Shown: positions 786-44,353 of the stretch, piece after piece
How positions within the stretch are numbered: the stretch's first letter is position 1
Layout: every line of letters begins with the position of its first letter
Position numbers and translations under genes: made by a program
The notes under the pieces: model-generated
The model's database searches: none
What the model saw: only the letters and a program-made list of their open reading frames with translations
Told to the model about the DNA's origin: nothing
NCBI GenBank assembly: GCA_051362555.1
Contig: CM120643.1
Location: forward strand, 20,402,848 to 20,466,847
Direction: 5' to 3'
Origin: Lingula anatina
Taxonomy: Eukaryota > Animalia > Brachiopoda
DNA: 64,000 bases

Positions 786-982
786 CTGTGAAAAGATGGG
801 GAAACTTAATGGGCATAGTGACTGCCTCTTCCAAAGCCTTTTTGGCTCCATCCAGACCTGCTATGTCGTCCCATTTAATGTTAGGCTTCTCCATCACAAT
901 GGTCCCTTCCAGCTGTGTCTGAAACTTTTTCTTTTCATCATTTCCTTCTGAATTACTGTCACTGCTGTCATTGTCTCCTTTC
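786..982 (-). CDS. VPS4: VPS4 exon 4 (linker and start of AAA domain), copy A
   Basis: tgcag|G AAA GGA ... TTC ACA G|gtaag; encodes [50 protein letters not shown]. Confidence 0.93.
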
Positions 983-3900
983 CTGCAGCAGAGCATTGGT
1001 TTTAATGCATAACACAAAGAACATTTGCTTACAGAAAACCTGATTTATTTACATAAATGACCCTTCGCTATTTTTCTTTCACAGGGATATTAAAATGGTT
1101 AGATCAGATTATTAAAACTTAAAGATGGAGATAAATTGAATCTTTAATTTCTCAGGTCTAATGTCTTTTTTTAGGTCTTTTTTCTTAATCCTCACTGATT
1201 TGCAAGTTTTATTTATTAAAACAATTCTGTATCAATATGCTTTTTGATAACATATTTTATTACTATTACTTTTCTGCTTTTCAATATGTTTAAAAGTGTA
1301 AAATACAAGAAAAATCATTGAAAAATAAAAAAATGGAAAATGGTTTAGCCTTTTTAAATAAATAAAACAAGCAAAAAATGTAAAAAAAACATTTAAAAAC
1401 ATAAATAAATGAATGAAATTTCATTACTTTCTATTTCCACCACAACTGCTGTCCTTTACTGGTTTCTGTTTTTTGCCACTGACATGCTGTCTTAATTTCT
1501 CTGCTCTGTCTGCATATGACTTACATTTAGTTCTGATACTTTCCTTAGCTTTGTCACTGCGTGCCTCATCTGAAATAAAAATAAATCACCTCCTAGTATT
1601 GCTGGAAGTACCCAAGATTGTTAGTTTGAAAAATTTTCAACACTTGAGTTAATAAGCATATAAGTGAAAGCTTTTGCATTTAACCAAACAGTAATTTCTA
1701 TAAATAGCAGGCCACACATTTTAATTAAAATATTTTAATGTGTTGCAATTTTACGAAGAAACTTGATTAAAAAAACACAAAATTTTCATCTGCACACATT
1801 TAATTGCACGGAGAAAGTACTCCACACCCTGCTCATACAACCTCAAGGCTTCCTCATAATTCTTTTTCTTGTCTTCTTCTGTAGCCTTGGTGACTATGTC
1901 AATGGCTTTCTGGAAAGAGATGTAGAATTAGTAATATACTGTAATAAAAAGCAAGAAAAAATGAAGAACAAATTCTTCATTTACAATTTAGTGCTAAATA
2001 TACCAGTGCATTTGGTTTCTGGGAAGAAATGCCAAATAAGTATAAAGTTAAATCAATCAAGTGGCACAGAAATGTAAAATGTTACTAGTATTACACAATC
2101 TACACAAACAGGTAACTGAAACTTTTTAATGACAAAGATTGTGTTCACATGAAAAATGTATTTTCTAAAAACCTATTTGCGGTATCTTGTGATCACGGTC
2201 TGTGCCCTGAATACCCCACGGCCTACCCAATTACGGGCAGCACAAGCCAGTTACTTCCAAAGCTGTAATTAATTCTCGGCGCTACCAGTAATTACGCCAT
2301 GGGGTATTCAGGCACAGACTGTCATCACAAGATACCAGAAATAGATTTTTATATTTTTAGAAAATAGATTGTTCATGTGAACGCAGCCTTACTCATGTGG
2401 GTGGTCGACACACCATCATCATCATCAGAAGCATTAAATGTCTACTAAAAATTTTGTTTTGTAAATGTCAGCAAAACATTCCTCAAAAAGTAGCAGTATC
2501 AGTTTTGGCTGAATAAAGCAGTGATCGAGGTAAAGGAAAACTGGAATTTGTGATCCAACTATCACTGTTACACCAGTATTTTTACTGTTGAGTCTTGTTA
2601 CCAAGCACTCCAAAACAAAAGTAGAATGTTAATCTTTATATCATTCTAACTAGAGGATCAGAGAGGCGATACCGCCTCTGGATATTGTACCACCAGCTGG
2701 AGTAAGCTCATTCGTATGGAAAACCGAAAAAAAGGGACACCACTACCAGTCTTGTGCTTGACACAGCTCCATAAAATGCAATAAACAAGAATTCTCAAAA
2801 TATCCAAAAAAAAAAATTCTGTAAAAATGGTCCTATCAATTTTCGAATTGACCTGTATTTTCCTCACATTGATCAATCCTGTGATTTTCTAGACAAAAGG
2901 CCTATTGGTTTTCCTCGAAATGTATTATCAGTGTTGCATATTTGCCGATAAAAAAGAAAACCAAAGGGCAACACTGGGCATATATCTTCTAGTTTTGAAG
3001 ATATGAGGGGCAAGAAAATATGCAAAGTTTAGTTCATGGTGAAAAAGTAAGTCAAAGGTCAATTTCAAGGCCACAGTTAGATTGCCAGTATATGCTTTCC
3101 TATTTAAGTTCAATAGCAACTATGAGCCTACCTCTGTCAGTTTTCTGAGATATAAGGGTGACAAAATTTGCAAGGTTCAATTCATGGTAAAAGTAGGTCA
3201 AAGGTCAATTTCAAGGTCACAGTAAGATTGCCAGTATATGACTTCCTACTCAAGTTCAACAGTAACTATGGGCGTATCTCTGATAGTTTTAGAGATATAA
3301 GGTCTGGAAAATTTGCAAAGTTTAGTTCATGGTGAAAATTAGGTCAAAGGTCAATTTCAGGATCACAGTAAATTGCCAGTATATGACTTCCTATTCAATT
3401 TCAATAGTACCATTGGCGAATCTTTGCCAGTTTTGGAGATACAAAGATCAGAAAACTTGCAAAGTGCAGTTCATGGTGAAAAGTAAGTCAAAGGTCAATT
3501 TCAAGGTCACAGTCAGATTACCAGTATACGACTTCCTATTCACATTCAATAGTAACTATGGGCGTATCTCAGCTAATTTTGGAGTATTTCAAATTTTATT
3601 TTCACCACTGAATATCGGGTACTGAACTTTTTGATATAATGCAACGCCTAAGCCAAATCAAAAAAGGAAAAATGGACACCACCTTCTGTGTTGCACTTGA
3701 TAATATCTACAAAATGCAAAAAACAAGAGGTCTCTAGCATTAACGGTTCCAGAATTAGAGAAAGTTTTCAGTTTCTGCATCTAATGGCCGCTACTCTCAT
3801 GAAAATGCACCGATTGACCCCAAACTCAAAAAGATGAAAGATGACACAAAGGGTAACAACTACCCATAATATTATAGGTTAGATCTGTGTAGTTTCTGAA

Positions 3901-6900
3901 AATCAGCAGAAATAAAAAAATTTTCGCAAAAAATTAAGATTTTTAGAAAATTTTGGCCAGTTTGACCTTGAAATAAAGGTCAAAAGTCAAATCCAAGGGC
4001 ATATCTGGAATCTTCATATATGACTTTCGGTCAGACTTCTGTAGTAATTTTTCCCATAATTCCTTCGATTTGGGAGATATGTGGCATTGAATTTTCAAAA
4101 ATTTTGACAAGGGTGTGTTTCAACGAGTGTCATGCCCAGGCCAATGCACTGACTGAGATAAAAAGAACAGGAGGTTCAAGTTGAGATTATATGTGACCTA
4201 AATCCAAGAGATGGGGACAAGGGTCCTTGCAGTCTAGGAGGAGAAGCGGTAACGGTGACTTGTATCCGGCGCCAGTACGCGGAGCCGGCGGAGCCGCAGG
4301 AGCCGGCGGAGCCGTACGAGACGGGTCGGGACTAAAACCATGAGTACCGCCAGCGTACACGCTGGTGGTACTAATAAAGGTTTGCTGCTGTCAATGACAT
4401 TCTACATTGAAGAAGACTATATCTTGGATGGATATTAGGATCATACTCATCTGGTGATGCACATGACTCATATCTTTCAAAACAAATACCTCTAAAAATA
4501 GTGTATTTTTCTTGCAGGGGTAGATCAGCATAACAGCAAATATGACACCCCATCAACCTATAGGTGTCTAGCTTACCTGTAAGATGTATTTTGACTCTTT
4601 CAAAGCCTCTTTGGCTCCATCCAGACCTACTACACCATCCCTTTTAAAGTTAGTCTGCCCCATCCCAGTGGCCCCTTCTAGCTGTGTCTGCAACTTTTTC
4701 TTTTCAACATTTCCTTCTGGATCACTTTCACTGCTGTCACTGTGTCCTTCCCTGCAGCAGAGCACTAGCTTTAATGTACATGTATAATAAATTACCTTGC
4801 ATGGTCATCTAGATCAATCAAAATGAGGAGTGATAAGATTTCCCAATTACCCACCATCTGTTGGATGGGGGCTATAATGAAGAATCAATTATCCTTATCA
4901 AAAAGTGAATATTTTAAAATAATTACAATAGGATGGATGACACTCCTTTGTATGAGACTGAAAGAAATCCCTGTCATAAGCTGAGGCCAGCATAGGAAAT
5001 TCCAATGCCAGAATCTCCAAAAAGTGTTTTTCCTATCTTTGAGAAGAACATTTCCAACAGATTTATGTTGGATAATAATACATATTTGGGGAAATACATG
5101 TCTGTTAAGTGCAAGGATAAAAATTTATGATACCGGTATATGAAAGTGAAAGAGTTCAATCAAAACTTAACACAGAGTGTTAATGATACAGTGTTGCATC
5201 TGGGCTGCGCCATTCCCGCATTAAAAACAGTGTTGTCCCTCATTTTGAGGCACGCCGCGCCACTAATGGCACAAAGGTAGAATAAATGTCCCTTTAAATT
5301 ATATCTAAAGCGTCCATCTAAGTAACATTTCTTTCCTGCTTGTCAATTATTCAATGTATACAGGAGAACATGAACGTTCCAAAAGAAACCATATTGTTTA
5401 CGCTGTGTAGTTAGGGGTTCTAACACGTCAGCACATGTACATCCGGCCCAGCTAACCAGACTTGAGTGGTTTGTGCGCAGAGCATACCATCACAGTGGCA
5501 ATGAAGTATCTTACGGCACCCTGTGCCAAAAATGTTTTTAGACTACTATAGCCCTTCAGGCAAGCAGACTCTAAAATTTTATTAGTCTGAACCAAAAAAA
5601 CACGAGCCCAATTTAAATAATTCATTTAAACAGTTTAAGCAGATGTTTTAAGGAGTATCAAACTTATCAGGTGAATAACAAAGTCAGTCAGGTTGATTTC
5701 CAGTTGATGGGGTGATAAAATTAAATAAAAATATATTTAATTTTTTTTTATATTGATAAAATCTTTTTTCATTTGTAATACTGATTATATAGTTTTTATA
5801 GTTATTTTTATAGTTATATAGTTATTTTTTATATTTTCATAATACCTTTTAAACATTTTTCATATGCAATCAAAATAAATAAAATAAAACAAATTCCTAT
5901 ACTCTTTATTGACAATGGCTCTTTTCTGACAATTTATTTCCAAACAACATTAGTATTTATCACCACTTGTAACTTAAATTACATAGGTGTTGTGAGATGT
6001 CACATTGTCAAGAATAGCTCAAAGGGTATTTAGTAATATGTAACTGCCTGGGTCTTATTGTTTTTAAAAGGCATAAGCCAAGGAAAATGTCTTTACTCAT
6101 GAATGTTAAAAAATATAAATAAAAAACATTAACAAAACAAAAAAGGAAAAAAATACTCCACCCCTCAGTCTGCTAGGTGGTCTTAACTCAAATATTCTAT
6201 GAGATAACACATACATTACACTTGCTTCAAAGACAGCGTGTTGTTTTGACAAAGAACCTGTTGCTACTAAGGAGTTTCGGTCTGTCCCAGTTTCTTGATT
6301 GACAGCCATTTGTAGTCGTGACAACATACTGGTCACATCAAAAGATGCCACATGCTGAACAGACAGACTGCTGCTATTAATTTAATTTATAGCAACTTAA
6401 ATATTCAGTAGTAAGAGCTACAGTGTGAGATTTTTTAACAGGTACAAAGAAGATTGGCAAGTTATATGTTGACATCTTACTGAGTGTTCAAATATGTTCA
6501 AAATTACAACTAACCCATTTGGGCTAGTGCTTTATAAAATTTCAACTTTTTTACTTGCCTGATGCCACTTCAGGTGGGCAATTGCTTAATATCGCATTTG
6601 ATTCTTTTGGTCTCTATTTTTATGTTAAGTTGCCTGACAGCCATAGCAAAATGTCAGATGAGAATTATTAATTTTTTCAAAAGCACAAGAAACAGTGGAG
6701 ACGAAGCTGCAACAATTTCAACTTTGCCTCAGGTGGAGATACAGGGTTGCCTGCCAAGATGGCAAAACAAGAGCCACGTGGTTTTACAAAGAGTGGCTGC
6801 ATGCTTAAATTGTGGACAATGAAATTCTAAGTAAAATTTTCAACAGAGGATAACACAAAGCTATACCAAAACTGCAAGCATATATGCTTACCATCTACTT

Positions 6901-9900
6901 GTTTTCATTTTTTTTTAATTTGCAAGGCACTTAAATGTCACATTTTTTTACATTTCTACTTATTTGCTTAAATTATTATCATTCATTCAAGTGTGTATAG
7001 TTTTAGTTGTACTTCCCTCAGCTTTTTCAAAATTTGCCTAAAGTTATACCTACATGTACTACATTTCCCCAATAAAATACCTAGAGGCATTGATCAGTTT
7101 TAACGCCAGAAAGCGTCAGTTTACATATGCATGAGCGACAATAGGAATATGAAAGTGTGGTGTGGCAGTGCATACTACAGGGTAGTAGATGCAGGTTTTA
7201 AGTGTGAACCCCTATAGGACCAGTCTTTCTACGCTCCTGACTCCCCATACCACAATTTGCAACTGCATACATAACTACGAACAAATGTCGTAGGATCTAC
7301 CTACGAAAGGTAATTTTGTTATCTGCGTAAGTGAATACGTCAAATTACAATTCAACGCTTGGATGAACCTACCGTGGACAGGCCTTCGTTATTCAGCTAT
7401 TGGCCTAGCTTCTACATGTATTATTGTATTGATTTTACTTTGCTAGTGTTGATATGGCCAATCGCAGTGGAGGTGAACAACTATAAGACATGAATATTTC
7501 TCTCCAGGGAGATAGATCAATCCAAATATCTGTGGGAATGGTCCCTATGATAGTATAAGTTGACAGCTATGGTTCGTAAATTTTGTACTGAAAGACCGGC
7601 GGTTGCACAAATTTCAGAACAAGTACCAGTACTCTAACGAGACACAAGGCATCCAGTAAGCATTGACGTGTTATGTCGGTGCAAAGCAGGCCAACTATAT
7701 GGAAGTTGCTCTAAGTAAATCTTTAAGTGAAGCTGAAGAGGCGATCCTGAAGTTAATGAGGGTTATGTACTTCAGTGCGAAAAATTTGATTACAATGTAC
7801 AGTCCCTTGCTGGAATTGATGGAACTAAATAAACAAGACTGTAAATAAAATATACAAAGATAATGGTGTCATGGCCACAAATCAGAATATTATGCAAGAA
7901 AGAAAAAATCACATGCAAATCTTTTTACAAACAAGGCAGCAAAGCTGTCAAAAGTACAGACAAAAAGCAAAAAACAAAGATGCAGAAAATGGGTCATTTT
8001 GTCAATTTTGATACAATAACAATTCTAGAAGATCAGAAAGACGATACTGCCTCCTGGTATTGTACTGCCAGCTGGAGTAAGCACATTCATATGGAAACCA
8101 CAAAAAAAAGGGACATCACCTCCAATGTTGTGTTTGGCAAACTCTTCAAAATGCAGTAAACAAGAGTTCATAATTTTTTGTTGAAAATTACAATTCATAA
8201 CTAAACCATGGGGATAAGTAAAAGGTAAAATTCAAATTTGTGAAGTGCAGTTCATGGTGAAAAGAAGGCCAAATGTCAATTTTAAGGTCATAGTTAGATT
8301 GTCAGGATATGAGTTCCTATATTCAAGTTCAATAGTAACTATGGGCATACATGTATCTCTGCCAGTTTTGGAGATATAAGGGATGGAAATGTTGCAAAGT
8401 TGAGTTCATGGAGAAAAGTAGGTCAAAGGTCAATTTCAAGGTCAGAGATAGATTGCCAGTATAATTGTTCCTATACAAGTTCAATAGTAACTTGGGGCAT
8501 ATCTCTGACAGTATTGGAGATATTGGGCTGGAAAAGCTGCAAAGTTCAGTTCATGGTTAAAAGTAGGCCAAAGGTCAATTTCAAGGTCACAGGTAGACTG
8601 CCAGTATATGACTTCCTATTCAAGTTCAATAGTAAGTAGGGGCATAAGAACTTCAAGCCAAAGGAAGTTTAAAGCCACACCTTGAAATTGTCGATATGTG
8701 AAATTCTTTTTTTCTCATAAAAAAAACATATAATTTCCAGAAAAGTTTACAGATAAAACAGGTTTTCCAACTGAAGATATACATGTATTTTAGTCCTATG
8801 CTACTTTTCTGTAAGTGAAATGGTTTTCCTCTAATGGTCACTATTGAGGCAGTGCCAAAAAAGGGTTGTCTTCAATTTTGATGCAAGATTACATAATGCT
8901 TAACAGCAAAAAGACCATCAATTTTTAATAAAAAAATAAAATAATAAAATACAGAAAATGCACAGAGCTTCTGGTGGATGGGGGTTAAAAGTGGCATCTT
9001 GAAGATGCTAGTGTTTGAAAGATAATTTAAAATTTTTTAAATAAAACATAACAAAAAATTCCAATAAAGCTGCTATTCAAACTTTTAATCTAACTGTATA
9101 ACTATTAACATGATATGAATAACCCTATTGAAATTGAGAATAATAAGGCACTGTTATTCATCTTTACCATTAATGTTAGCATTACACAAAGTTTTTTTTT
9201 TTTTTTTTTTTGTAAATGTATTGGCAATATTAAACAACATTTACCTGCTTAATTATCACCAATTCCTAATTATGTGACACAGTTTAGAGAGCTAAACCTA
9301 TAGGACTAAACCTATAATGAAATCTCAACATGTGTTTTAAGTAATCTCCGTTAATGGTCACTTGAAAATTAATTAGGCAAATGACTTAATTAGACTAAAT
9401 AACCCTGAATTTAGCTAGTGATTACCCAAGGGGCAATAACATACTGACTGACATCCATATACTGTGGCACCAGATAGCACTCTATAGAACTGCATTGCTT
9501 CCAAAGCAGAAAACAATCACACTGATTTTCCAACACAAGCTGCACTTCAGTCCTATGTAACTTTTCAGTAAGTTTGAGTATCATAAGTAACATGGTTTTC
9601 CCTTAATTTTCATCCTGGCAGCAGTGTCCAAAAAAGGGTTTTCTTCAATTTTCATGCAATGTAACATAATGCTTAACAGCATGATGACCAGCAATTTTTA
9701 ATAATAAAGTATCATGGAAATTCAGAAAATGTGACTTGCAAAGGTCTTCAAGCCAATAGAAGTTCAAATTCATACCTTGAAAATGTCAATATGTGAAAAT
9801 GTTAATTCTCACAAAAAAAAAAACCTATATAATCTCCAGAAAAGTTAATTGATAAAACTAGTTTTCCAACTGAAGCTACATTTGAGTCCTAAGCTACTTT

Positions 9901-12900
9901 TGTGTGTAAGTTTGAGAAGAGTAAGTGACATGGTTTTCTTTTAATGGTCACTATGGAGACAGTGCCCAAAATAAGGTTGTCTTCAATTCTGATGTAATAT
10001 TACATAATGCTTAACAGCATAATGGCCATCAACGTTTTGATAATAAAACTAGAGGATCAGAGAGGCGATACCGCCTCCGGATATTGTACCACCAGCTGGA
10101 GTAAGCGCATTCGAATGGAAAACCAAAAACAAACAGGAACAACTACCAGTGTTGTATTTGACAAGCTCTACAAAATGCAATAAACAAGACAAGAAATATG
10201 CCCCCTCCTCCAAAATAAAAAAAACAGCACAACTTTTATAAAAATTGTCTGATCAAGCCAATTTTCAAGACTATAGGCTTGTCAGTTTTCTTTAAAATGC
10301 ATTATCAGTGTTGCATATATACTGAAAGAAATAGGCCTATCTCTGCCAGTTTTGGAAATATAAGGGATAGAAAATTTGCAAAGTTCAGTTCATGGTAAAA
10401 AGAAGGTCAAAGGTCAATTTAAATGTGACAGTCAGATGTCCAGAATATGAGCGCATTCTCAACGAATTACGGTACCGTAAGCCAGGCTTTACAAAGCCGG
10501 TGACCTAAAAATGGCGGACGTACATGAAAGAAAAACCGCCTAATCTTTTAATAGTCTCTCCGCCTCCCCACACGTCGTCCCTGCGGGGTACAGTAATTAA
10601 ATCGCGTCTCGGTTCGCCATGCAGAAGCTACCTGAGAAATATTAAGTGCGCATGCTCATCAGTTAAACTCGTGGTGAGGAAAGCATGGCGGCTGAAGGCG
10701 ATCGAATGAAAAAAGCGCTTCTGTTCTATTATCTTTGAAAACAGAGACGAAAAAGGAATAATTTGGCCCGTAGAGCAGCAATGAATCGACTATCTACGGA
10801 GATAATATCACAAGATATTCACGGAAATATTAATGTTCGGAGCCGAGATTTAATTACTGTACCCCGCAGGGACGACGTGTGGGGAGGCGTGTGAGAGGCG
10901 GAGAGACTATTAAAAGATTAGGCGGTTTTTCTTTCATGTACGTCCGCCATTTTTAGGTCACCGGCTTTGTAAAGCTTGGCTTAATTCGTTGAGAATGCGC
11001 TCTATGACTTCCTATTCAAGTTCAAATGCAACCATGCGTGTATTTCGGCCAGTATTGGAGAAAGAAGGGATGGAAAAATTGCAAAGTTCAGTGCAAAGTG
11101 AAAAGTAGGTCAAAGTTTTCAGTTTTGGCATCTTATGGCCGTTTCTCCCATGAAAATGCACCGATTGACCCCAAACTCCCCAAAATGAAAGGAGTCCCTA
11201 ATTGCATGCCCTCACTATGATATGAGTGCTAAACTCTGTGTAGTTTCTGAAATTTGGTACAAATAAAAGTTTTTTTGCAAAAAATACCCGTTTTTAGAAA
11301 ATTTTGGCCTGTTTGACCTTGAAAAAAGGTCAAATTTCAGAAACTACCTTGAAAAAAAGGTCAAAGGTCAAATCCAAAGGCATATTTGAAATCCTCATAT
11401 ATGATTTTAGGTCAGACTTCTATACTAATTTTTCCCATAATTCCTTCCATTTAGGAGATATATAGCATTGAAGTTTAAAAAAATTTGACAAGGGTGCATT
11501 TCATTGAGTGTCACGCCCAAGCGAATGCACCGACTGAGACAAAAAAACCAGGGGGTTCAAGTTGAGATTATATGTGACCTAAATCTAAGAGTTGGGGACA
11601 CAGGTCCGTGCGGTCTAGGAGGAGAAGCGGTAACGGTGACTTGTATCCCACGCCACCCTGCGGAGCCGGCGGAGCTCACGGAGCTCACGTTCGAAGCCGG
11701 CGGAGCCGTACGATACGGGTCGGGACTAAAACCATGAGTACCGCCAGCGTACATGCTGGTGGTACTAATGAAATTATCATGGAAATTCGGAAAATGTGGC
11801 GTGGAAAGGTCTTCAAGGCCATGGAAGTTCAAAGTCACACTTTCAAAATGCCAAAATGTAAACAAGAGATAACTGTATTAAAATGATTTTCTGTCCATTT
11901 TCAACACCTTTTTATACATAAAACAAAATAATCTATTTACTGTTATTTTTAATTGATTAGCTAAGAAAATTGTTGACAAAGGAAATATATCAATAGAACA
12001 ATTTTAGATGTCCAATTTGCTCCATTCTGAGATTCTGAACATAGTGAATGATTGAATCTAACAAACTGTAAAGATATGAGTTTTTTTTTCTATTTTTAAC
12101 TCTTTATTACACAATACACAATAACAGATTTACCATCATTTTTATATATTAAACTAACAATATTATTAAGATGCAGAAAATGTCAAAAGAACACCTTTAC
12201 ATATCTACTAGTATGTAGTTAAAAAATGAGACTGTTAACATGCCTAAGAATTAAATCTGAGGAAAAAACACTTATTTACATAAAAAGGCATAACTTCACG
12301 AAAACTTAAAGGTACATACGAACCGAGCATCGGTGGAGCGTGGATTCCCAGTAGCACATGTAAACCACTTCTACTAGATTCTTATATGACTCAAATAAAT
12401 TTGACATGCCAAGGGATAAACTGTATAGATCACTCGATCAGCCATAAAAGACCTTTAGACTGCTCCTTTCTTTAAATTTATGGTTGTAAATTTAACCTAC
12501 TTCCGTGACCTACTTTCCTGTCCCATTGACATACCTGTACAGCTTAGAATGCCAGCAGAAAAATCTGTTCAAACATCATTTTCGGGTAAAATTAAACAAT
12601 GCCTTTTGGTAATTCTCTTAGTTATACTACTTGAAACTATATGCTGGCATTTGGTTGGTTTTTGTGACAAAAAATTGACTTTGTATGCATCTTTAACCAA
12701 TCAAGCTTATTCTCAAACTTATCTTGTATTCTAGTAAGACTGATCACTCCTGTGAATTTCAAGACAATTGGCCAAGCGTGTTATCGGTATTGCATATATG
12801 CTGAAAAAAAAATGAAAAATAAAACAATATAACTTTTATTTAAAAAAACCCCGATCATGCTGATTTTCAAACTTGACCTGCGTATTATGAATATTCATCA

Positions 12901-13928
12901 GTTTTGTAAGTTTCAAGCCAAAAGGTAAAATGGTTTTTCACTTATCGTGTTATCGATGTTGCATATATGCTGAAAAAAGTGAAAAAAACAGCATAACTTC
13001 CATAAAAATGACCCTATAATGCTGATTTTCAAACTTGACCTGCATATATTAAATATTGATCAGTTTTGTAAATTTCAAGCCAAAAGATAAAATGGTTTTT
13101 CACTTATCGTGTTACCGGTGTTGCATATTTGGTGAAAGAAGTGAAAAAAACAGCATAACTTCCATAAAAATGGCCCGAAGTGAAAAAAACAGCATAACTT
13201 CCATAAAAATGGCCCGATCATACTGATTTTCAAAATTGAACTGCATATTATGAATATTCATCAGTTCTGTAAGTTTCAAGCCAAAAGAAAATGGTTTTCC
13301 ATTTATCGTGTTATCGGTGAAAGTGCATGGCGATGGCGATCACGACGGCGATGACACGCAGGTGACGGCTTTATGTACAGATACAAGATAGAAGGTGTTA
13401 ATCTGAAAGAGTTGTTAAGATCCTAGGAAATGCCTTAGATGAATACTACTACTACAGCCAACATGCTTGAAGGAAAAATCTCAGATGATGAATTACTTCA
13501 GACATTAAAAATGTGAAAAATTATAAAAGCCCAGGCATGGCCAACTTCACAGTGAAAATTTTTTTTGACAGATATACACTCCTTTATTCTCCATTCCATA
13601 AACGAAGCATATGAAAAGTAATGATTAAAATATTTTTGAAAGATTCACAGTCGTGTGTATTAATGAATAGACATTCTTCTTCCCTCTTTAGTATCTCGAG
13701 GCTGTCGCCAAGGTGCTCCCCTCTCACCATACCTATTCATATTATGTGCTGAAAGTCTTTCTAGTATGTTAAGAAATAATGACCACATAACATGCATAAT
13801 GAAGAATTTCTAAATTCTCAGTATGCTGATGATACAACAATACTTTAGATGGAACTGAAAAAAGTTTACATGCTGTGCTCCAAACTTTTTAAAAATTTGC
13901 TAGCATGTCTGGTTTAACTGTACATTCA

Positions 13929-13973
<45 letters not shown>

Positions 13974-14567
13974 AACACCATTCTTTGTAAAGATTTTAAA
14001 TTAGATTGGAAACCGAAGACTTTGAACATTTTAGGTGTTGAATTCTCAACCAACTTACAGGATTTGGTGGAAAAGAATTATAAAGACAAATTCAAAGAAG
14101 TAAAGCGGTTTATGGAAAAATGGTCGACCAGACCCCTGACAGTATTAGGGAGGAACGTGACATAATCATCTTTTTACTTCACTTTCTAACCCGAACACAA
14201 ATTTTATTAAAGAACTTCAAAAATTATGTTTTAGATTTTTATGGAAAGGTAAAGTTGTTAATTAAAAGTTAAAAGGGAAAAGATGATTCAAAATTATAGA
14301 AATGGAGGAATTAAGACTACTGACATTAAGTATTACATTTATGCACTAAAGGTAACCTGGCTTAGAAGATGTACATTAAAAGATTCAAAATGGAACATCC
14401 TTTTTAGACTCCATTAATACCAATTTACATTGGGCCAAAATTGGTAAGGGGAAACTGATATCTATAAGAAATAATATAAGAAACTCATTTTCGAAGGATG
14501 TTATTGATGCCTGGATAAATCTGCTAGATCATAAAATTGTCTGTACCAGAGATAAATTTTTGAAGGT

Positions 14568-14614
<47 letters not shown>

Positions 14615-16457
14615 GATTTGATTAACTAAAATGGAGAATATCTTAACTTTGTTCAATTTACACAAAAATTTAAAAATATTACTGATTTTTTTACATTTCA
14701 TGGTATGATATCCACTGTAAAAAGATATCAAAAAGAGCTTGATATTGACATGAAAGGAAAAATAGAGTGTCCATGTTTATCTACACAAATATTGTGGTTG
14801 ATAGGATTTAGTGAAGGTGTAAACCGTTCTATGACTCAATAGTAAATTCAGACATACAAAGATATAAATCTAGGGAAAATTGCGAACATTTATTAGAAAA
14901 TACTTTTAATGCTAATTATTGGAAAAAATTAATAGTTTACCTTTTACCTGTACAAAAGAAACAAAAAATTTATTATTATCCTACCATATTACTTGTAATT
15001 TTCTGCTTTTTATATATGTTTAAAAGTGTAACATTCAAAAAAATTCAAGAATAAAAAACTTGAAAATAGTTTTGCATGTTTTAAATAAATAAAACAAACA
15101 AAAATAAAAGTAAAATAAACTAAAAAAACATTGAAGAAAACATTAATTAAATGAATGAATTTTCAATACTTTTTACATTCACCACTACTGCCATCCTTTA
15201 CTGGTTCCTGTTTCTTGCCACTGACATGCTGTTCTAATTTCTGTACTCTGTCCAAATATAAAATACACTTAGTTCTGATACTTTCCCTAGCTTCGTCACT
15301 ATCTGCCTCATCTGAAATCAGAATAAATCACCTAGTATTACTGAAACTAGCTGAGATTTTTAGTTTGAAAGATTTTTCAATGTTTTATAAATGAACATCT
15401 CTAGCAGTGAATTCAAAAGCTTTTACATTTAACCAAACAATAATTTCTATACATAGCAACAGAAAGACCACACGTATTGATTTTAATATTGCAATTGCAA
15501 TTTTACAAAGAAACTTGATTAAAAAAACACAATCTGCATACATTTAATTGCATGGAGAAAGTACTCCACACCCTGCTCATACAACCTCAAGGCTTCCTCA
15601 TAATTCTTTTTCTTGTCTTCTTCTGTAGCCTTGGTGACTATATAATTGGCTTTCTGGAAAGAGATGTGGGCATGGAAATTAGTAATGTATTGTAATAAAA
15701 AGCAAGAAAAAATGGAAAACAAATTCTTCATTTACAATCCAGTGCTAAATAGTACATTTGGTTTCTGGGGAGAAATGTCAAATAAGCACAAAGTCAAATG
15801 CTCACCTCACACATATGTATTGTTACTAGTATTACACAATCTACTCAAACACGATACTTAAACTTTTAATGACTTACTCCTGACGTTACTCATGTGTGTG
15901 GTCGACACATCATCATCATCAAAAATAATCAGTTTCTACTTATATTTTGTTTTTTTTTAATATCAGCAAAACTTTGCTCCGACTTCGAAGTAGCAGTGTC
16001 AGATTAGGTTGAATAAAGCAGTGAGACGAATGAAAACTGGAAATTGTGGCCCGACTCTGGCTGTTAGTGTTACGGCAATATTTTAACTGTCGAGTCTTGT
16101 GCATGACCAAGCACTCATAAAAAGGCAGTTGCTAAACTCTATGTCATTCTTATGAAGGTTTACTGATGCCAATAATATTCAAATTGATGAAGACTATATC
16201 TTGAATGGATATTAGGATCATACTGGTGATGCACATGACTCACAAGCTCTTTCAAAACAAATAGGCCTACCTCTAAAACTAGAAAAGCACTCCGAGAGGA
16301 GCCGAAGCTCTTTCAAAACAAATACATACATGTACATGTACCTCTAAAAAAAGTGGATTTATCGGGATTTTTTTACTCGCAGGGGTAGATCAGCATAACA
16401 GTGATCGGAATCACATCAACCAATAAGCATTTGACTTACCTGTAAGCTCGTGGACAT
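786..16457 (-). CDS. VPS4: VPS4-like gene AB, tandem-MIT chimeric paralogue (5' part; AAA exons 5-12 would lie left of the window)
   Basis: Seven exons, all with GT-AG and matching phases: 16457-16440, 15653-15542, 15311-15170, 4751-4577, 1909-1798, 1569-1428, 982-786. The joined frame is open: [71 protein letters not shown]...-EGHSD...[24 protein letters not shown]...[28 protein letters not shown]...-KGDNDSSD...[37 protein letters not shown], which matches the VPS4 N-terminus. Confidence 0.75.
1428..1569 (-). CDS. VPS4: VPS4 exon 3 (MIT helix 3), copy A
   Basis: 142 bp, ttcag|AT GAG...AGA AA|gtaatg; [40 protein letters not shown]. Confidence 0.92.
1798..1909 (-). CDS. VPS4: VPS4 exon 2 (MIT helices 1-2), copy A
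   Basis: 112 bp, tttccag|AAA GCC ATT...AAA T|gtgtgc; [37 protein letters not shown]. Confidence 0.93.
2135..2391. mobile_element. Fold-back MITE (Harbinger-like ends)
   Basis: Long imperfect inverted arms (gtgttcacatgaa...ttcatgtgaacgc; gtgccctgaatacccc...ggggtattcaggcac); absent from paralogous intron 1; related fragment at about 27465-27600. Confidence 0.7.
2648..4375 (-). mobile_element. Helentron-type non-autonomous element (HINE family 1) with about four 146-bp internal repeats
   Basis: Ends aactagag...GAGGCGatacCGCCTC hairpin plus subTIR gtaccaccagc, and terminal hairpin gtaccgccagcgt-a-c-acgctggtggtac. No TSD relative to the empty site (cattcttataaagg at 34211). Confidence 0.8.
4577..4751 (-). 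CDS. VPS4: Chimeric VPS4 exon: truncated exon 4 fused to the 3' end and donor of exon 1
   Basis: Exon-4 acceptor (tgcag|G GAA GGA CAC), 58 open codons ending ...[11 protein letters not shown]|gtaagc. The following intron (4576-4378, 2647-1910) is homologous to intron 1 of the other copies (e.g. ggggtagatcagcataacag at about 4517, 16382, 33259, 34369). Confidence 0.8.
7520..7850 (+). mobile_element. Degenerate hAT/ZNF862-type transposase N-terminal remnant (TTF-like zinc finger)
   Basis: Fragments KFC...[21 protein letters not shown], then [14 protein letters not shown]...[11 protein letters not shown]; stops and frameshifts present. Confidence 0.55.
8024..8646 (-). mobile_element. Truncated HINE family 1 copy (3 internal repeats)
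   Basis: Degenerate ctagaagatcagaaagacgatactgcctcc terminus followed by aggtcaaaggtcaatttcaaggtcac units. Confidence 0.75.
8650..10046. repeat. Degenerate tandemly repeated interspersed family (resumes at 11770-11870; also about 41460-41890)
   Basis: Recurring block tggttttcc..taatggtca...gcagtgcc..aaaagggttgtcttcaattttgatgcaa..tacataatgcttaacagc at about 8820, 9590, 9930 and 41590. Confidence 0.6.
10047..11769 (-). mobile_element. HINE family 1 copy with nested MITE
   Basis: Same termini as 2648-4375. Confidence 0.8.
10449..11002. mobile_element. Harbinger-type MITE, about 150-bp TIRs, 3-bp TSD TAT
   Basis: tat[GAGCGCATTCTCAACGAATTA...TAATTCGTTGAGAATGCGCTC]tat inserted in the host repeat motif atatgacttcc. 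Confidence 0.85.
12310..12692 (+). mobile_element. TTAA-target MITE (Kolobok-type)
   Basis: ttaa[AGGTACATACGAA...TTGTATGCATCT]ttaa; three copies in the window. Confidence 0.85.
12730..13390 (-). mobile_element. HINE family 2 element with internal tandem repeats
   Basis: Repeats of ttatcggtgttgcatatatgctgaaaaaa...ctgattttcaaacttgacctg; same terminus as 28250-28756. Confidence 0.65.
13400..14960 (+). mobile_element. Degenerate L1/Tx1-type LINE reverse transcriptase fragment
   Basis: [22 protein letters not shown] at about 13697, SQYADDTT at about 13817, ILGV.F, W..R.LT..GR; many frameshifts; contains poly-A (13930-13970) and (TA)n (14570-14610). Confidence 0.85.
15170..15311 (-). CDS. VPS4: VPS4 exon 3, copy B
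   Basis: 142 bp, [44 protein letters not shown]. Confidence 0.88.
15542..15653 (-). CDS. VPS4: VPS4 exon 2, copy B
   Basis: 112 bp, [41 protein letters not shown]. Confidence 0.9.
16440..16457 (-). CDS. VPS4: VPS4 exon 1 coding part, copy B (MSTSLQ)
   Basis: ATG TCC ACG AGC TTA CAG|gtaagt; matches the VPS4 N-terminal ...LQ|KA exon boundary. Confidence 0.85.
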
Positions 16458-26000: not shown

Positions 26001-26102
26001 CTATCCCTCTGATCCAAAGTCGTCGGTGAATCTTTGCATTTCATCCAGATCAGCCTTATTAACAGTGGGCTTCGTCTTCCCAAGAGACATCAGCATATCA
26101 CT
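26001..26102 (-). CDS. VPS4: VPS4 exon 12, copy C
   Basis: ttccag|[36 protein letters not shown]. Confidence 0.9.
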
Positions 26103-26445
26103 CTGGAAAACAGAAGCAGCAGTGGCAGGAATTGAAAAACAGGACAAAATATCATATACCCACCACAGCTACATTAGGTACATATATGTTTCTATCTCCA
26201 GAATGTTGATCTTATTGATTTCTAGCTAAAGGCTTTTTAACATATACCTGACATTAAACTGAGAGTTTGCTTTATCCTGTCTTATGCTGCACATAAAACT
26301 GGGAGTTTACAAAAGACAGACCCAATACTTACCACAGATGCAGTGTGATAGTTTCATGATATTTCTGTACAATGTTTTAACTTTAACAATCATTATATAC
26401 ATAGCTGTGACAAAGGCCTGACACAAACTTCTCCTCCAAACTTAC

Positions 26446-26586
26446 CATAGAAACAACAGGTTCAAAAAATTTATCTCCAGGCACATCCATCCAGTTCATT
26501 TCCATAGCCTGAGGGTCATCCGGGGAGCAAGGGGTTAAGAGGTCACTGACTATGACATCTGGGTTATCCTGTGATGGTCCTCTTAC
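26446..26586 (-). CDS. VPS4: VPS4 exon 11 (beta domain), copy C
   Basis: 141 bp, [47 protein letters not shown]|gtaagt. Confidence 0.92.
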
Positions 26587-26944
26587 CTGAAGATGTGAAA
26601 TAAGCACACTGTTTGACAGCCAATTGAACTGTAAGCATCTCTTTAAAAGACATTTCATTTGAGACTCTTGTGACATGCTTTGTTTCTTGCAACAAGTGTT
26701 CTTGGGTAAATAATTCATAACATATTTTTAAATTACTTTAAGATTTACTTTCAGTCTTCTAATTTTTATGGGGAGGGGAAAAGAAACCTGTGGGGTCTGT
26801 GTCTTCTAATGACTACATTAATGGAAACAGTTTGGAGTACAATGTGTTTTCACTTTAAGTTTCATTTTAATTTTTATCTTGGTTTCTACAATAAACGGGG
26901 ATCAAAACAAAAAGGTAGAAGATTATACTTCACATTGCTCTCAC

Positions 26945-27032
26945 CCTTTTGAAATGTGTAGCATTCTGTACTTTCCTCACTGGCTGCATGAGTGCGTCTC
27001 TTACTACTACACTGATATCTGCTCCAGTGTAG
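26945..27032 (-). CDS. VPS4: VPS4 exon 10, copy C
   Basis: 88 bp, [30 protein letters not shown]. Confidence 0.92.
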
Positions 27033-27899
27033 CTAAAATCAAACAATAGTATATAGATATTAGCAGAGCAAAAGTAAGCCAGTGTGCAACATTGATACTG
27101 GCTCTATGCCAAATGCCTGTAAAAAAGAAAAAAAAAGTCAGGCCAAAAAAAGTTTGTAATTTTCCTCAGTTACTGGTCATTTAGTCTGGTTTCTTCTTTG
27201 GGTTAGAAAACTTTTAGACTGTGATGTTTCAAAAGTGGCACAAATAATTTGAAAATATATGTAGATACTAGACCTTTATATATATCTGTTTACACCAGTA
27301 CAAGGTATCACAGATACAGATAACTTGTTATGGTTAAAAATGAGTCCAACACAAGGTAATGAAATCATATTGTTTGGTTTGATGTATGTATCGCTGAAAG
27401 GGTCTAGCCTATATGCAGATGATAAGTTAATTGACATGATAATAGAATCAAATATAGCAAAGTTTTAGGCACCATTCACATGAAAAATCCATTGGTGGTA
27501 TCTAGTGATCACTGTCTGTGCCCTGAATACCCTGAGGCATAATTAACTAGCAGAGCGAGAGAGTTACTTCCAAAGTTGTAATTAAATCTCAGTTGCGCTC
27601 GGAGGAGATTCTGACACCTGTTTGTCGATTTTGTGCAACAACAAGACAAAGAAGATGAGGTCCATATACACATGACTGATATGAGTGCAAACTGATGAAC
27701 TCCACAGTTTAAAGATACTACTGCTACCAAAAAAAACTGAAAACACATGGTTTGATAGGGTTTGTTATGATGGAAAAAGCAAAGTCCGTAGATCATTAAA
27801 ATCTTTCAAAAACTCACTTACAGTAGGACCAAAATGACCATCTATCTATCAAGAGACATATCTGTGAATATCTGTAAAAACTCTTTCAGTCGCCCTGGT

Positions 27900-28250
27900 A
27901 GAGGGTAATAAAAGAGTATGAAAATTCATCAAATCAAAGACCAGGAAGATCTTGATATAAATAAGAAAATAACTTTAAACGAAGTGCAGATAAGCATAAA
28001 TGATATGAAGATTGGAAAAGCTGTGGGCTCTGATGGTATTCCTCTTGAGTTCTATAAATACTGCACTGATGTAGATTAATTATTACAATAATACACTTTA
28101 TTAGTTGATTTGTTTAATTAAAATTTTGAAACTGGTCATTTTTCAACCCCATGGTCTTTGGGAGTCATTGTACCACTGTTCAAGTCTGGAGACAGAGACG
28201 ACCACAATAATTACAGAGGAATAACACTGTTGTGAATAAAATGTTTGCTA
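27900..28250 (+). mobile_element. LINE reverse transcriptase fragment
   Basis: GKAVGSDGIPLEFYK and WSLGVIVPLFKSGDRDDHNNYRGITL motifs; absent from copy D intron 9. Confidence 0.8.
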
Positions 28251-28756
28251 AAATCAGGTTGCTTTTTAGTCCTGTGTTTCTTTCCTGTAAGCTTGAGAAG
28301 AGTGACATTGTTTTTCCTTTAATGGTCATTACATGTATGTGTTGCATTTTATGCAGAGAAAAAGGGAAAAAAGTGCATAACTTTTGTAAAAATGATAAGA
28401 TCAAGCTGGTTTTCAAACCTCGCCCTGTATTTTAGTAAGATTGATCACTTCTGTGAGTTTCAAGACAAGGGGCCTATTGGTTTTCCTTGGAATGTGTTCT
28501 TTGAAATGTGTTATCAGTGTTGCATATATGCTATAAAAAGGGGAAAAAACTGCACAACTTTTCTAAAAATGGCCTGATCAAGCTGTTTTTCGAACCTGAC
28601 CTGTATTTTATTAATATTCATCAGTTCCATAAGTTTGAAGACAAAAGGTAAAACATTTTTCCTCTATCGTGTTATCGGTAAAAGTGCACGGCGACAGTGA
28701 CAGCGACGACACAGATGACGGCTATATGTACAGACACATCTGTGTCTGTACACAAA
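28250..28756 (-). mobile_element. HINE family 2 element
   Basis: Terminal hairpin tgtacagacaca-tc-tgtgtctgtaca; internal repeats as at 12730-13390. Confidence 0.65.
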
Positions 28757-28961
28757 AAGTCATTCTTAGAAATGGACAAAGATGATATATAATGAAATGT
28801 GCAATTATAGAAATGAATGATTATCAAGTTATTGTAAAAAGGCCTTATATATGTACAGTGAAATAATAATAATAATCAGTATATAATTTTATAGAGCTCA
28901 AATTTCCCCAGTTTTGCACGACTTTAATGGCCTCACACAGTTCACATGATTAACAGCTTAC

Positions 28962-29093
28962 CCCTCAGTCTTCAGTCCTAGTACTCTGAAGTCCCCTTGG
29001 GTGAGAAAGTTTGGGGTGTTTCTAAGATGCAACTGAAACATGGTGGCTCGAGCAGGGGCTTCTGGGAGTGGGATGTAGATTCTTTTCTCAAAG
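28962..29093 (-). CDS. VPS4: VPS4 exon 9, copy C
   Basis: 132 bp, [44 protein letters not shown]. Confidence 0.92.
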
Positions 29094-29159
29094 CTGGCAA
29101 AAAGCAGTTCAATAAGCAGTTATTTAACTTAACTTGCAGTGATGTTGTTTGGTTTACAA

Positions 29160-29245
29160 GTGCATGTGCCTGTGTGTGCACGCACATGCATGCGTGTGTG
29201 TGTGTGTGTGTGTGTGCATGTGTGTGTGTGTTTGTGTGTGTGTGT
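29160..29245. repeat. (TG)n microsatellite in VPS4 intron 8 (also 45335-45468 in copy D)
   Basis: Direct inspection. Confidence 0.9.
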
Positions 29246-29255
29246 AACTGCCTAC

Positions 29256-29337
29256 CTTCTCCTTAAAGCAGAGTCAAGAACCCAAGGAATACTTGTGGCT
29301 ACTAACACCAAAATTCCATCATTATCATTTCCAACAC
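29256..29337 (-). CDS. VPS4: VPS4 exon 8 (sensor 1 and SRH), copy C
   Basis: 82 bp, [27 protein letters not shown]. Confidence 0.92.
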
Positions 29338-29769
29338 CTGAAATGTTAAGGTAAATTTTCACATTTTCATTCTCAATAACTGACAGAAACAGATCTCATC
29401 TGTTAGTTAACTGTGTGCATTCCTCCAATGGAAAATTTGAATTGCTGAACAAGGAAACTTTCGTGAGCTACGTGCAAGGCCTATCTATGCATAACTAAGC
29501 CTACTATAAAAATTGAAGATGACTAGTAGGTGAAATGATTCTTTTGCAATAAAATCTTAAAAGTTTCTTAAAATATAATTGTGATCAATGTGATGACATT
29601 TAACAAAACCTTCAAATGGTCTTTTAGAATTTTCTTGGGCAAACCAAAGAATCTGTAACAAATCTACTACCCTTACTCTCTAGGTAGATTGTCTAAGTAT
29701 ACCATTAATTACCCTATTTTTAAAATAACCACACTGTCTCTTGGGAGATTCTGCCTACTTATCACCCAC

Positions 29770-29918
29770 CCTGCATTTGTGCAAGAAACTCTGTCTTAAT
29801 TCTCCTGGCCAACTCAGACTCGTTATCACTCCTGGACGAGCAGAGGGAGTCAAAATCATCTATGAAAATAATGCTCGGCTTGTGTTCTCTTGCCATCTCA
29901 AATAGATTCTTTACTAAT
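29770..29918 (-). CDS. VPS4: VPS4 exon 7 (Walker B, pore loop 2), copy C
   Basis: 149 bp, [50 protein letters not shown]. Confidence 0.93.
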
Positions 29919-30117
29919 CTGAAAGAGATTCCATCATTATTATACATAATGAACCATAAAGGAGTGTGCTTTCAAGGAAATTATGTTAAAGGATTCTACT
30001 CCATCACAACGCTCAATTTTGTCTAACAGTCTGTTCTGAAAATTTTCACGCATCATTTATACAGACTTTTTTTATAAGAATGCAAATATAGAAACTAAAG
30101 AGAAATCAACCATCTTA

Positions 30118-30327
<210 letters not shown>

Positions 30328-30465
30328 TTATTTCTTGCATCTTTTTGTGTGACCGATATCTATACTCAAACTTTCCACAAGCCTTACTCAAATATTAACT
30401 AATGTCTGAAATTAAAAGTAATAAGAACTGAGACTTGAAATTATAGATACTGTAACTTGACTCAC

Positions 30466-30503
30466 CCCATACAATAATATACCCCTCTGTGGCTGTCTTT
30501 TAC
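30466..30503 (-). CDS. VPS4: VPS4 exon 5, copy C
   Basis: 38 bp, cgtag|GKRQPQRGILLYG|gtgagt. Confidence 0.88.
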
Positions 30504-31066
30504 CTACGATAGAATATTCAAAAACATTACTAATTGTGGATCATTATGATTCACTATGCAATTTTAATGAAAATTACTGTAACATAATATAATTATTATA
30601 TTCTTTATTCCCCAACAACTAAAAAAAACTTCTATGCAATAAGAAATAAAGAATCTTTCAGCATTTTGGAAATAAATAGACCCATCTTTGCTGAAACTTA
30701 AAATTATATCTTAAACTTGTAAATATTTTACCATACATGAGTATCATTCATATGATAATATTTAACTGTATGTATTTTGATTTTGTACTTTGTGTATTAA
30801 TCAAAGTACAAATGTCAATTAAATGGCATTTTCAACTAATAACTATTTCTGTTGTAATTTTAAGAAATCACGAAATTGCTGACAGCAAACTAGCCTCTCA
30901 ATTCATGCCTGCATAAATAATGAGTTAAAAGCTCAAATTGTATTTGATCATTATTTCAGTCATTTGGTATACAGAGCTATTACAGTAATGCTTTTGTACT
31001 TTCTGTCAACTAATCAAGGAATTTGTCCAAAATCACTTAATATATCTTATAATGTCCTACTTGTAC

Positions 31067-31620: not shown

Positions 31621-32101
31621 CTGTAGCAGAGCATTGGTTTTAATGTATAATATAATAAAGAATATTTTTTTACAGAAAACCTGATTTATTTACGTAAGTG
31701 ACCTTTCACTTTTTTAGTTTCACAAGGATTTTAAAATGGTTACAGTAGAAGATTAAATATAAACTTAAAGATGGAGATAAATTGAATCTTTCACCTCTTA
31801 GGTCTAATCTCTTATTTTTGGGGGGTCTTTTTTCTTAATCCTTAATCAAATTGCAAGTTTTATATATCAAAGCAATTCTGTATCAATATGCTTTTTGATA
31901 ACATTTTATAACAAGTAATTTTTCTTTTTTATTATGTTTCAAAGTGTAACATAAAAGAAAAATATTTGAAAAATAAAAAAAAAAACTGGAAAATAGTTTT
32001 CCATTTAAAATAAATAAAGCAAACAAAAATAAAAACAATAATAAATGTAAAATAAAACAAACAAATATTCTAAAAATCATAAATAAATGGATTTTCATTA
32101 C

Positions 32102-44338: not shown

Positions 44339-44353
44339 TTAAGTTTCATTTTT

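What the first reader, a model, noticed from the sequence alone, without database searches (positions are those of the whole stretch)
786..16457. VPS4 with two tandem MIT domains, created by in-frame fusion of two tandem gene copies
Seen: the exon at 4751-4577 starts at an exon-4 acceptor (phase 2), but after ...EALKE it switches to SKYILQ|gtaag, an exon-1-type end (phase 0) followed by intron-1 sequence. This joins copy B exons 1-3 to copy A exons 2-4 with no stop or frameshift, giving MIT-linker-MIT-linker-AAA. In the chimeric exon the AAA-start motif has decayed by substitution only ([15 protein letters not shown] to [15 protein letters not shown]) while the frame and both splice sites survive, as expected for a segment repurposed as a translated linker. 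Established: canonical VPS4 has a single MIT domain that binds ESCRT-III MIM tails; tandem MITs are known in VTA1/LIP5 and ULK3. Inference: a new VPS4 architecture with altered avidity or partner range.
Basis: partly seen in the sequence, partly recalled or inferred. Interest (0 to 1): 0.88.

Follow-up and report, generated by a model that had tools for sequence, protein, structure and literature searches.

The report
Crippled two-MIT VPS4 duplicate in Lingula
In the brachiopod Lingula, two neighbouring copies of the membrane-cutting gene VPS4 are joined in one open frame that reads as a protein with two grip (MIT) domains, but the motor has lost two catalytic residues and the joining exon is rare or absent in the RNA examined, so it is likely a fading, hydrolysis-poor duplicate rather than a stronger-binding enzyme, and fish gene models already show a conserved two-MIT VPS4B.

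Summary
Exon 4751-4577 switches from exon-4 to exon-1 sequence and joins copy B exons 1-3 to copy A exons 2-4 in frame. The window is a Lingula VPS4 tandem array (copies A-E). RefSeq already models this protein (XP_013404792.1, 582 aa; one residue differs), with an open downstream AAA domain, so a mis-join is unlikely.

The AAA domain has Walker B Glu→Asp and an arginine finger Arg→Ser. MIT2 has lost the MIM1-binding leucine. Substitutions hit invariant columns at the neutral rate, and dN/dS for copy B is about 1. In 8 RNA runs the chimeric exon had no specific reads (5 runs) or at most 3% of VPS4 exon-4 depth (3 runs); neither junction was among the joints shown, but that table was truncated.

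Two MITs are not new: ray-finned fish VPS4B models carry a conserved extra MIT with an intact motor. Krill (three MITs) and firefly (two) models arose separately and also lack the Walker B Glu. Against pure decay, the frame survived more mutation than chance predicts.

Verdict: likely a fading, crippled duplicate; a decoy role remains open. The scan had no earlier finding of this.

The parts
16440..16457 (-). Copy B exon 1 (start codon, 6 codons)
   Evidence: first 6 residues of XP_013404792.1
15542..15653 (-). Copy B exon 2 (MIT1 helices 1-2)
15170..15311 (-). Copy B exon 3 (MIT1 helix 3 and linker; A68V, E69Q, K72E in canonical numbering)
4792..14986 (.). About 10.2 kb of dispersed repeats and satellites inside copy B intron 3, flanked by intron-3 homology at both ends; no VPS4 exon found in it
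   Evidence: heavy cross-laid RNA depth
4595..4751 (-). Chimeric exon X4, part from copy B exon 4 (acidic linker, helix, decayed AAA start)
   Evidence: canonical reads stop fitting at 4595
4577..4594 (-). Chimeric exon X4, exon-1-type end and donor; likely deletion breakpoint at 4595/4594
   Evidence: followed by intron-1 homology 4537-4371
1798..1909 (-). Copy A exon 2 (MIT2 helices 1-2); donor gtgtgc where B and C have gtatgc
1428..1569 (-). Copy A exon 3 (MIT2 helix 3; L65A at the MIM1 surface; internal GTAAGT at 1524-1519)
786..982 (-). Copy A exon 4 (linker and AAA start); later exons lie left of the window
26001..33348 (-). Copy C: complete single-MIT paralog, 12 exons, 433-codon open frame, E232D, N276S, R288S
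   Evidence: 4 of 433 residues differ from XP_013385057.1
31091..31441 (.). Dispersed repeat inserted in copy C exon 4; a new in-frame donor removes 6 residues
33622..34439 (-). Copy D fragment: exon 1 and 32 nt of exon 2, running into the promoter of copy C
43057..45560 (-). Copy E fragment: last five exons only, Arg→Ser at the arginine finger, stop two codons early

Best explanation
Two neighbouring VPS4 copies are joined in one open frame, likely by a deletion from copy B exon 4 to copy A exon 1, and the two-MIT gene is likely a fading duplicate with a predicted crippled motor, expressed at trace level at most in the RNA examined. Steps: (1) inferred: a Lingula-specific duplicate took W164Q, E232D, G273V and R288S and was then amplified in tandem; (2) shown: the join is in frame and keeps both splice sites; (3) inferred: the deletion removed the rest of B and the promoter of A, so A is read from B's promoter; (4) shown: later substitutions in A and B fall on invariant columns at the neutral rate; (5) predicted: any protein made would bind ATP and fold two MIT bundles, hydrolyse poorly and bind MIM1 tails weakly, so it would act as a weak passenger or decoy and not as a higher-avidity enzyme. 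Intact canonical VPS4 does the ESCRT work.
For: Walker B reads DD where mouse VPS4B has D234-E235, and the arginine-finger stretch reads MRS for RRR; yeast E233Q and R288A/R289A are each inactive (PMC5392032 passages). MIT2 has Ala at the VPS4A L64 position, whose mutation blocks MIM1 binding (PMC11218997 passages). Substitutions against the canonical protein at fully invariant columns: A part 14 of 50 (15.1 expected), B part 6 of 31 (5.8 expected). dN/dS: B vs C 0.92, A vs B 1.19, X4 vs A4 1.9, none different from 1. RNA: 39 of 39 reads laid on 4380-5700 in four runs fit only 4595-4633 and run on as canonical VPS4, with zero depth on 4650-4751; X4 depth is 0, 2.9, 2.7 and 2.8% of exon-4 depth in four more runs; 0 of 130 reads at 1809 carry the copy A letter. 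Two of five copies in the window are fragments. Lingula has the highest gene-family turnover among the bilaterians compared (PMC4595640 passages).
Against: The frame is better kept than neutrality predicts: P(no stop) 0.09 for A times 0.23 for B, and 0 coding indels where intron rates predict about 6 per pair of copies. Substitutions in A are more conservative than neutral (BLOSUM 0.22 vs -0.29, p 0.014), and A vs C dN/dS is 0.54 (p 0.05). Copy C avoids conserved columns (private changes 5 vs 10.3 expected, p 0.026) while keeping the same catalytic losses. RefSeq has three isoforms here, and the start of X2 is what a B2→X4 joint would give, which suggests NCBI saw spliced reads. Only 6-30% of each run was read, tissues and stages are unknown, two runs had 1 and 5 canonical reads, and 498 joints were hidden. 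Glu→Asp may keep some activity.
Confidence: 0.52

Rival explanations
1. The paralogs are selected pseudo-ATPases. They bind ATP, enter VPS4 rings or cap ESCRT-III, and do not hydrolyse, so they damp ESCRT in a narrow setting (a stage, the germ line or infection), much as retroCHMP3 does. The extra MIT tunes recruitment.
For: Frame retention. E232D and R288S are ancestral to A and C, and C is conserved afterwards. E232 is the only one of 131 invariant columns changed in all of Lingula, krill and firefly (0.003 for a named column, chosen after the fact). Among MIT-bearing cluster representatives the Walker B Glu is lost in 6 of 58 and the Walker A Lys in 0 of 59 (sign test 0.03 by hand). E233Q subunits lower filament disassembly by wild-type Vps4. 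Low expression would suit a toxic inhibitor (retroCHMP3 abstract).
Against: A and B show no avoidance of invariant columns. Both MITs carry changes on or near the MIM1 surface, which a trap would be expected to keep. Arginine-finger mutants oligomerise poorly. No induced or staged expression was shown. Krill and firefly models also depart at 19% and 14% of conserved columns, are single records, and their expression was not tested.
Confidence: 0.27
2. The locus mainly makes a single-MIT protein by splicing B exon 3 straight to A exon 4, skipping X4, A2 and A3; the two-MIT form is a minor isoform.
For: B1-3 joined to A4 is in frame. A joint 981/15169 is seen in all four runs (120, 48, 21, 15 reads). 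In runs X7 and X9, 2-7 of 46-96 reads at five exon-4 sites do not carry the canonical/C letter, while none of 14 and 9 carry the A letters in exon 3.
Against: In X1 and X4, where the joint is commonest, 0 of 131 and 0 of 43 reads at 903 carry the copy A letter, so those joints come from another VPS4 gene laid at 90% likeness. The minority reads may be third letters or paralogs outside the window.
Confidence: 0.1
3. One reading: an active VPS4 with two working MIT domains and higher avidity or wider partner range.
For: Open frame, both splice sites, two folded MITs with the MIM2 valine kept in both; Walker A, pore-loop Trp and sensor-1 Asn intact. Fish models show that two MITs on an intact motor are tolerated.
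Against: E232D, R286M, R288S; L65A in MIT2; neutral-rate loss of invariant residues; trace expression.
Confidence: 0.07
4. Assembly mis-join of haplotypes or tandem copies.
For: High heterozygosity (1.6%) and many repeats between 4.8 and 15 kb. No DNA reads were laid.
Against: RefSeq has the same X4 residues and the same B-X4-A order, yet differs from the window at 1 of 299 and 4 of 433 residues, so it likely rests on another haplotype or assembly. Copies differ by 12-15% in introns, far above allelic distance.
Confidence: 0.04

Closest known systems
Canonical VPS4 (Lingula XP_013404810-815; human VPS4A/B; yeast Vps4)
   Same: Direct descent (Lingula clade 100/100); MIT, AAA, lid and Vps4_C domains; Walker A, pore-loop Trp, sensor-1 Asn.
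   Different: Two MITs with a 66-residue spacer; Walker B Asp for Glu; arginine finger Ser; MIT2 Leu→Ala; trace expression.
RefSeq model XP_013404792.1 (582 aa) and isoforms XP_023930784.1, XP_023930785.1
   Same: The same gene; 298 of 299 residues in the window.
   Different: Named only as VPS4A/4B isoforms; no paper on it was found.
Two-MIT VPS4B isoforms of ray-finned fish (Danio XP_009296349.1, Amia XP_066544582.1, tuna, sablefish and others)
   Same: MIT-MIT-AAA order from duplication of the MIT exons.
   Different: Independent and old (extra MIT forms one clade, 100/99); little or no spacer in most; motor intact (0 departures at 220 conserved columns in Danio); some are also on Logan contigs.
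Multi-MIT VPS4 models of krill (CAL4112106.1, 3 MITs, Glu→Gln), firefly (KAF5269524.1, 2 MITs, Glu→Asp) and Carassius (XP_059425382.1, 2 identical MITs, Glu kept)
   Same: Independent MIT doubling on a diverged motor; Walker B Glu lost in krill and firefly.
   Different: Arginine fingers kept; gene models only, DNA and expression not checked here.
retroCHMP3 (bioRxiv 10.1101/2021.04.27.441704)
   Same: A duplicated, disabled ESCRT component whose frame persists longer than chance predicts.
   Different: A truncated ESCRT-III retrocopy with shown antiviral activity; nothing functional is shown for the Lingula gene. An analogy only.
Tandem-MIT proteins VTA1/LIP5, ULK3, Atg1
   Same: Two MIT domains in a row (Atg1; the others recalled).
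   Different: No AAA motor; VTA1-type MITs pack as a unit (recalled), while here they are separated by a low-confidence linker.

Membership tests
VPS4 (working enzyme) | N-terminal MIT domain | tested here: met
   PF04212, 2 stretches; two three-helix bundles at pLDDT 76-88
VPS4 (working enzyme) | One AAA cassette with lid and Vps4_C | tested here: met
   PF00004, PF17862, PF09336 on the RefSeq protein; these exons lie outside the window
VPS4 (working enzyme) | Walker A lysine, pore-loop-1 tryptophan, sensor-1 asparagine | tested here: met
   (copy C has Ser at sensor 1)
VPS4 (working enzyme) | Walker B catalytic glutamate (VPS4B E235, yeast E233) | tested here: not met
   Asp373 aligns to E235; Glu in 285 of 304 proteins, 10 not scored
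VPS4 (working enzyme) | Arginine fingers (yeast R288, R289) | tested here: not met
   second is Ser and the preceding Arg is Met; the Ser codon is seen directly at the exon joint in copies C and E
VPS4 (working enzyme) | MIM1 surface (VPS4A L64) | tested here: inconclusive
   Leu kept in MIT1 but neighbours changed (A68V, E69Q, K72E; their role is recalled); Ala in MIT2
VPS4 (working enzyme) | MIM2 groove (VPS4A V13) | tested here: met
   Val in both MITs; other groove residues not mapped
VPS4 (working enzyme) | ATP-driven hexamer that disassembles ESCRT-III | not testable with these tools
   needs purified protein; filed as a VPS4-derived paralog, not as a working VPS4
Fish two-MIT VPS4B | Extra MIT from the fish-specific clade on an intact motor | tested here: not met
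   both Lingula MITs group with the Lingula canonical MIT (100/99)
Pseudogene | Stop or frameshift in the coding sequence | tested here: not met
   open frame in the window and in RefSeq
Pseudogene | Neutral substitution pattern | tested here: inconclusive
   neutral for B and X4; mixed for A; not neutral for C
Pseudogene | No spliced transcript | tested here: inconclusive
   0 to 3% depth, joint table truncated
retroCHMP3-like ESCRT inhibitor | Blocks ESCRT-dependent budding or sorting in cells | not testable with these tools
   no assay; analogy

The most novel reading that the evidence does not exclude
Animals repeatedly evolve natural dominant-negative VPS4: duplicates that keep ATP binding, lose the Walker B glutamate and sometimes gain extra MIT domains (Lingula two, firefly two, krill three with the laboratory Glu→Gln change). 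They would act as low-level or inducible brakes on ESCRT, possibly against enveloped viruses, as the VPS4 counterpart of retroCHMP3.
Probability: 0.2. Interest if true: 0.8.

Novelty: new variant of a known kind. Interest (0 to 1): 0.42.

Why it matters
As a fading duplicate it is a clear example of domain doubling by an in-frame deletion between tandem genes, and a caution that an open two-domain frame does not show function. If the decoy reading holds, it gives natural hydrolysis-dead VPS4 proteins that can be tested directly in standard ESCRT assays. The by-product may matter more: ray-finned fish VPS4B models carry a conserved second MIT on an intact motor, which five paper searches did not find described and which can be tested in zebrafish.

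Tried and rejected
No whole genome is held, so exons left of the window were judged from RefSeq proteins only. The run search listed no indexed RNA holder; this blank is not used as evidence. The second read lay at 90% likeness over 700-16600 was swamped by repeats: 498 joints, 2680 letter rows and 2366 loose ends were hidden, so B-specific letters could not be read. The 981/15169 and 15311/15542 joints were rejected as proof that this locus is expressed, because the reads carry non-A letters. Single-sequence AlphaFold was poor (pLDDT 46); the aligned model (67.7, pTM 0.33) gives no domain arrangement, and no fold search was run. An apparent excess of shared substitutions between Lingula and krill disappeared on fully invariant columns (4 vs 2.4 expected, p 0.19). 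A tie between MIT number and Walker B loss is not supported overall: 0 of 60 MIT-bearing representatives have two MITs, yet 6 of 58 lack the Glu, and the fish two-MIT forms keep it. No ORF of 110 aa or more was listed in the 10-kb intron insert. No complex prediction was run, since MIT-MIM pairs would pass by likeness to solved structures. Scan look-ups returned only archaeal and bacterial loci.
Full report
Identity of the locus. Exon 787-981 matches Lingula anatina VPS4 proteins first (98%, 88%, 88%, 83%; 136 of 154 candidates passed). tblastn and self-BLAST show five copies on the minus strand: E (last five exons), D (exon 1 and part of exon 2), C (complete), B (exons 1-3 and X4) and A (exons 2-4, the rest beyond the left edge). 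Intact canonical VPS4 proteins are annotated on a RefSeq scaffold of the same listed length, outside this window.

Observation. Confirmed base by base. X4 follows about 40 nt of intron-3 acceptor sequence, is exon-4-like to 4595, ends in 18 nt of exon-1-type sequence with its donor, and is followed by intron-1 homology. B intron 3 homology stops at 14987 and resumes at 4791, so the 10 kb between is inserted repeat DNA. The simplest history (inferred) is a deletion from B exon 4 to the start codon region of A. The joined frame equals XP_013404792.1 at 298 of 299 residues; copy C differs from XP_013385057.1 at 4 of 433. RefSeq therefore likely rests on another haplotype or assembly and still has the same junction and order. 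RefSeq isoform X2 starts with the Met-Glu-Gly-His that a B2→X4 joint creates. That NCBI builds such isoforms from aligned transcripts is recalled, and its evidence could not be seen.

The motor. Against mouse VPS4B, Asp373 stands at E235 and Met-Arg-Ser at R289-R291. Yeast E233Q is hydrolysis-deficient, R288A/R289A cannot oligomerise alone, and E233Q lowers filament disassembly by wild type (PMC5392032, passages). E235Q is called the dominant-negative form (PMC13484431, passages). W164Q, E232D, G273V and R288S are shared by A and C, so they predate the fusion. V13 and L64 of VPS4A were placed from primers and text in PMC11218997 (passages): Val is kept in both MITs, Leu is Ala in MIT2. The AlphaFold model (67 sequences) folds both MITs and leaves the X4 segment below pLDDT 50 apart from one helix.

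Selection. Nei-Gojobori dN/dS: B vs C 0.92 (137 codons), A vs B 1.19 (137), A vs C 0.54 (143, p 0.05), C vs E 0.65 (179, p 0.23), X4 vs A4 1.9 and vs C4 0.77 (53 each, not significant). Against 53 thinned ordinary VPS4 proteins (from 173), substitutions at conserved columns occur at 0.114 vs 0.117 elsewhere for A, 0.26 vs 0.19 for B, and 0.056 vs 0.147 for C (p 0.002). Against this, P(no stop) is 0.09 for A, 0.23 for B and 0.12 for C. Eight intron pairs gave 27 non-homopolymer frameshifting gaps per 239 mismatches, predicting about 6 per coding pair where none is seen. The frames were therefore likely protected for part of their history, although intact copies are the ones that get noticed. 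Copy A also has a weaker exon-2 donor and a new GTAAGT inside exon 3 whose use would shift the frame (read by eye).

RNA. Nine raw runs with the same species label were listed; 8 of 9 were laid, 6-30% of each read. On 4380-5700 at 95% likeness (about 43 million reads), 39 of 39 laid reads fit only 4595-4633; the loose ends shown for two runs translate as canonical VPS4, and 4650-4751 had zero depth in all four. Two of these runs had only 1 and 5 such reads. On 700-16600 at 90% (about 44 million reads), the bin holding X4 gave 0, 2.9, 2.7 and 2.8% of exon-4 depth. At 1809, 0 of 130 reads carried the A letter. A few reads without the canonical letter occur in exon 3 (run X4, 1 of 10) and exon 4 (X7 and X9, 2-12%). 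Neither predicted junction was among the 15 joints shown; 498 were hidden. Tissue and stage are unknown, so narrow expression is not excluded.

Is the architecture new? No. Of 304 proteins fetched, 296 have a full MIT and 66 have two or more. This set is enriched by my seeded search and includes isoforms. Sixty of the 66 are fish rows or group with fish; one of these (P0133) looks like a spurious repeat and one (P0227) is unnamed. The other six are two Lingula isoforms, krill, firefly, a rice model and an unnamed MIT-only protein. In trees of 33 proteins and 43 MITs the fish extra MIT forms one clade from Amia to teleosts, while the Lingula, krill, firefly and Carassius doublings are separate. 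Two fish proteins and P0227 are also on Logan contigs; a 507-residue frame on contigs of at most 3.3 kb suggests spliced RNA. The Walker B Glu is missing in 9 of 304: six Lingula rows, krill, firefly and one mackerel model. Among 150 cluster representatives, 60 carry a MIT and none has two; 6 of 58 lack the Glu and 0 of 59 lack the Walker A Lys.

Literature. Five searches found no paper on Lingula VPS4, tandem-MIT VPS4, fish two-MIT vps4b or inactive VPS4 paralogs; only listings were seen for their hits apart from PMC13484431, and most subscription journals are not covered. For retroCHMP3 I read the abstract and one results section of 10.1101/2021.04.27.441704 and only the listing of 10.1101/2020.08.30.273656. 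For PMC4595640 I read passages; its supplements were not opened and might hold stage-wise expression of these gene models.

Verdict. The fusion is real and already in a database, though unremarked. It descends from VPS4 but fails two catalytic features of the working enzyme. Interest 0.42.

Noticed in passing
P0067, P0134, P0105, P0281, P0227 and others (not in the window): Ray-finned fish VPS4B models have a long isoform with a second, diverged MIT directly before the normal one, conserved from Amia to teleosts on an intact motor; not found described in the paper searches made.
   Followed up: partly
P0129 (krill), P0130 (firefly): Independent multi-MIT VPS4 models with Walker B Glu→Gln and Glu→Asp.
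   Followed up: partly
P0339, P0359, P0382, P0398, P0406, P0449 (unnamed representatives); P0118 (mackerel): Diverged single-MIT VPS4-like proteins that lack the Walker B Glu, several also arginine fingers, but keep the Walker A Lys.
   Followed up: partly
window 26001-33348: Copy C is a complete 433-codon paralog with E232D, N276S and R288S that avoids changes at conserved columns; a better pseudo-ATPase candidate than the fusion. Its expression was not tested.
   Followed up: partly
window 31091-31441: A dispersed repeat (related to 12306-12696 and 43970-44342) interrupts copy C exon 4; a new donor keeps the frame and drops 6 residues, a second in-frame rescue in this array.
   Followed up: partly
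window 1519-1524: A full GTAAGT donor consensus inside copy A exon 3; its use would shift the frame.
   Followed up: no
window 39060-39129: Frameshifted remnant of an alternative last exon of VPS4; the canonical protein has two different C-terminal ends in RefSeq (P0002 vs P0123).
   Followed up: no
window 22427-24142, 3013-3584, 8243-8646: A 146-bp satellite (12, 4 and 3 copies); the two shorter arrays drew deep RNA coverage.
   Followed up: no
window 50687-53311 and 57389-59337: A set of nested long inverted repeats (up to 414 nt at 94%), possibly a fold-back element.
   Followed up: no
P0128, P0233 (Carassius): VPS4B-like models with two identical MIT-plus-linker units and a diverged Walker A proline and pore loop, in two species.
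   Followed up: no
P0159 (unnamed Logan protein): A 355-residue protein made only of VPS4-like MIT repeats (three full, further partial), with no AAA domain.
   Followed up: no
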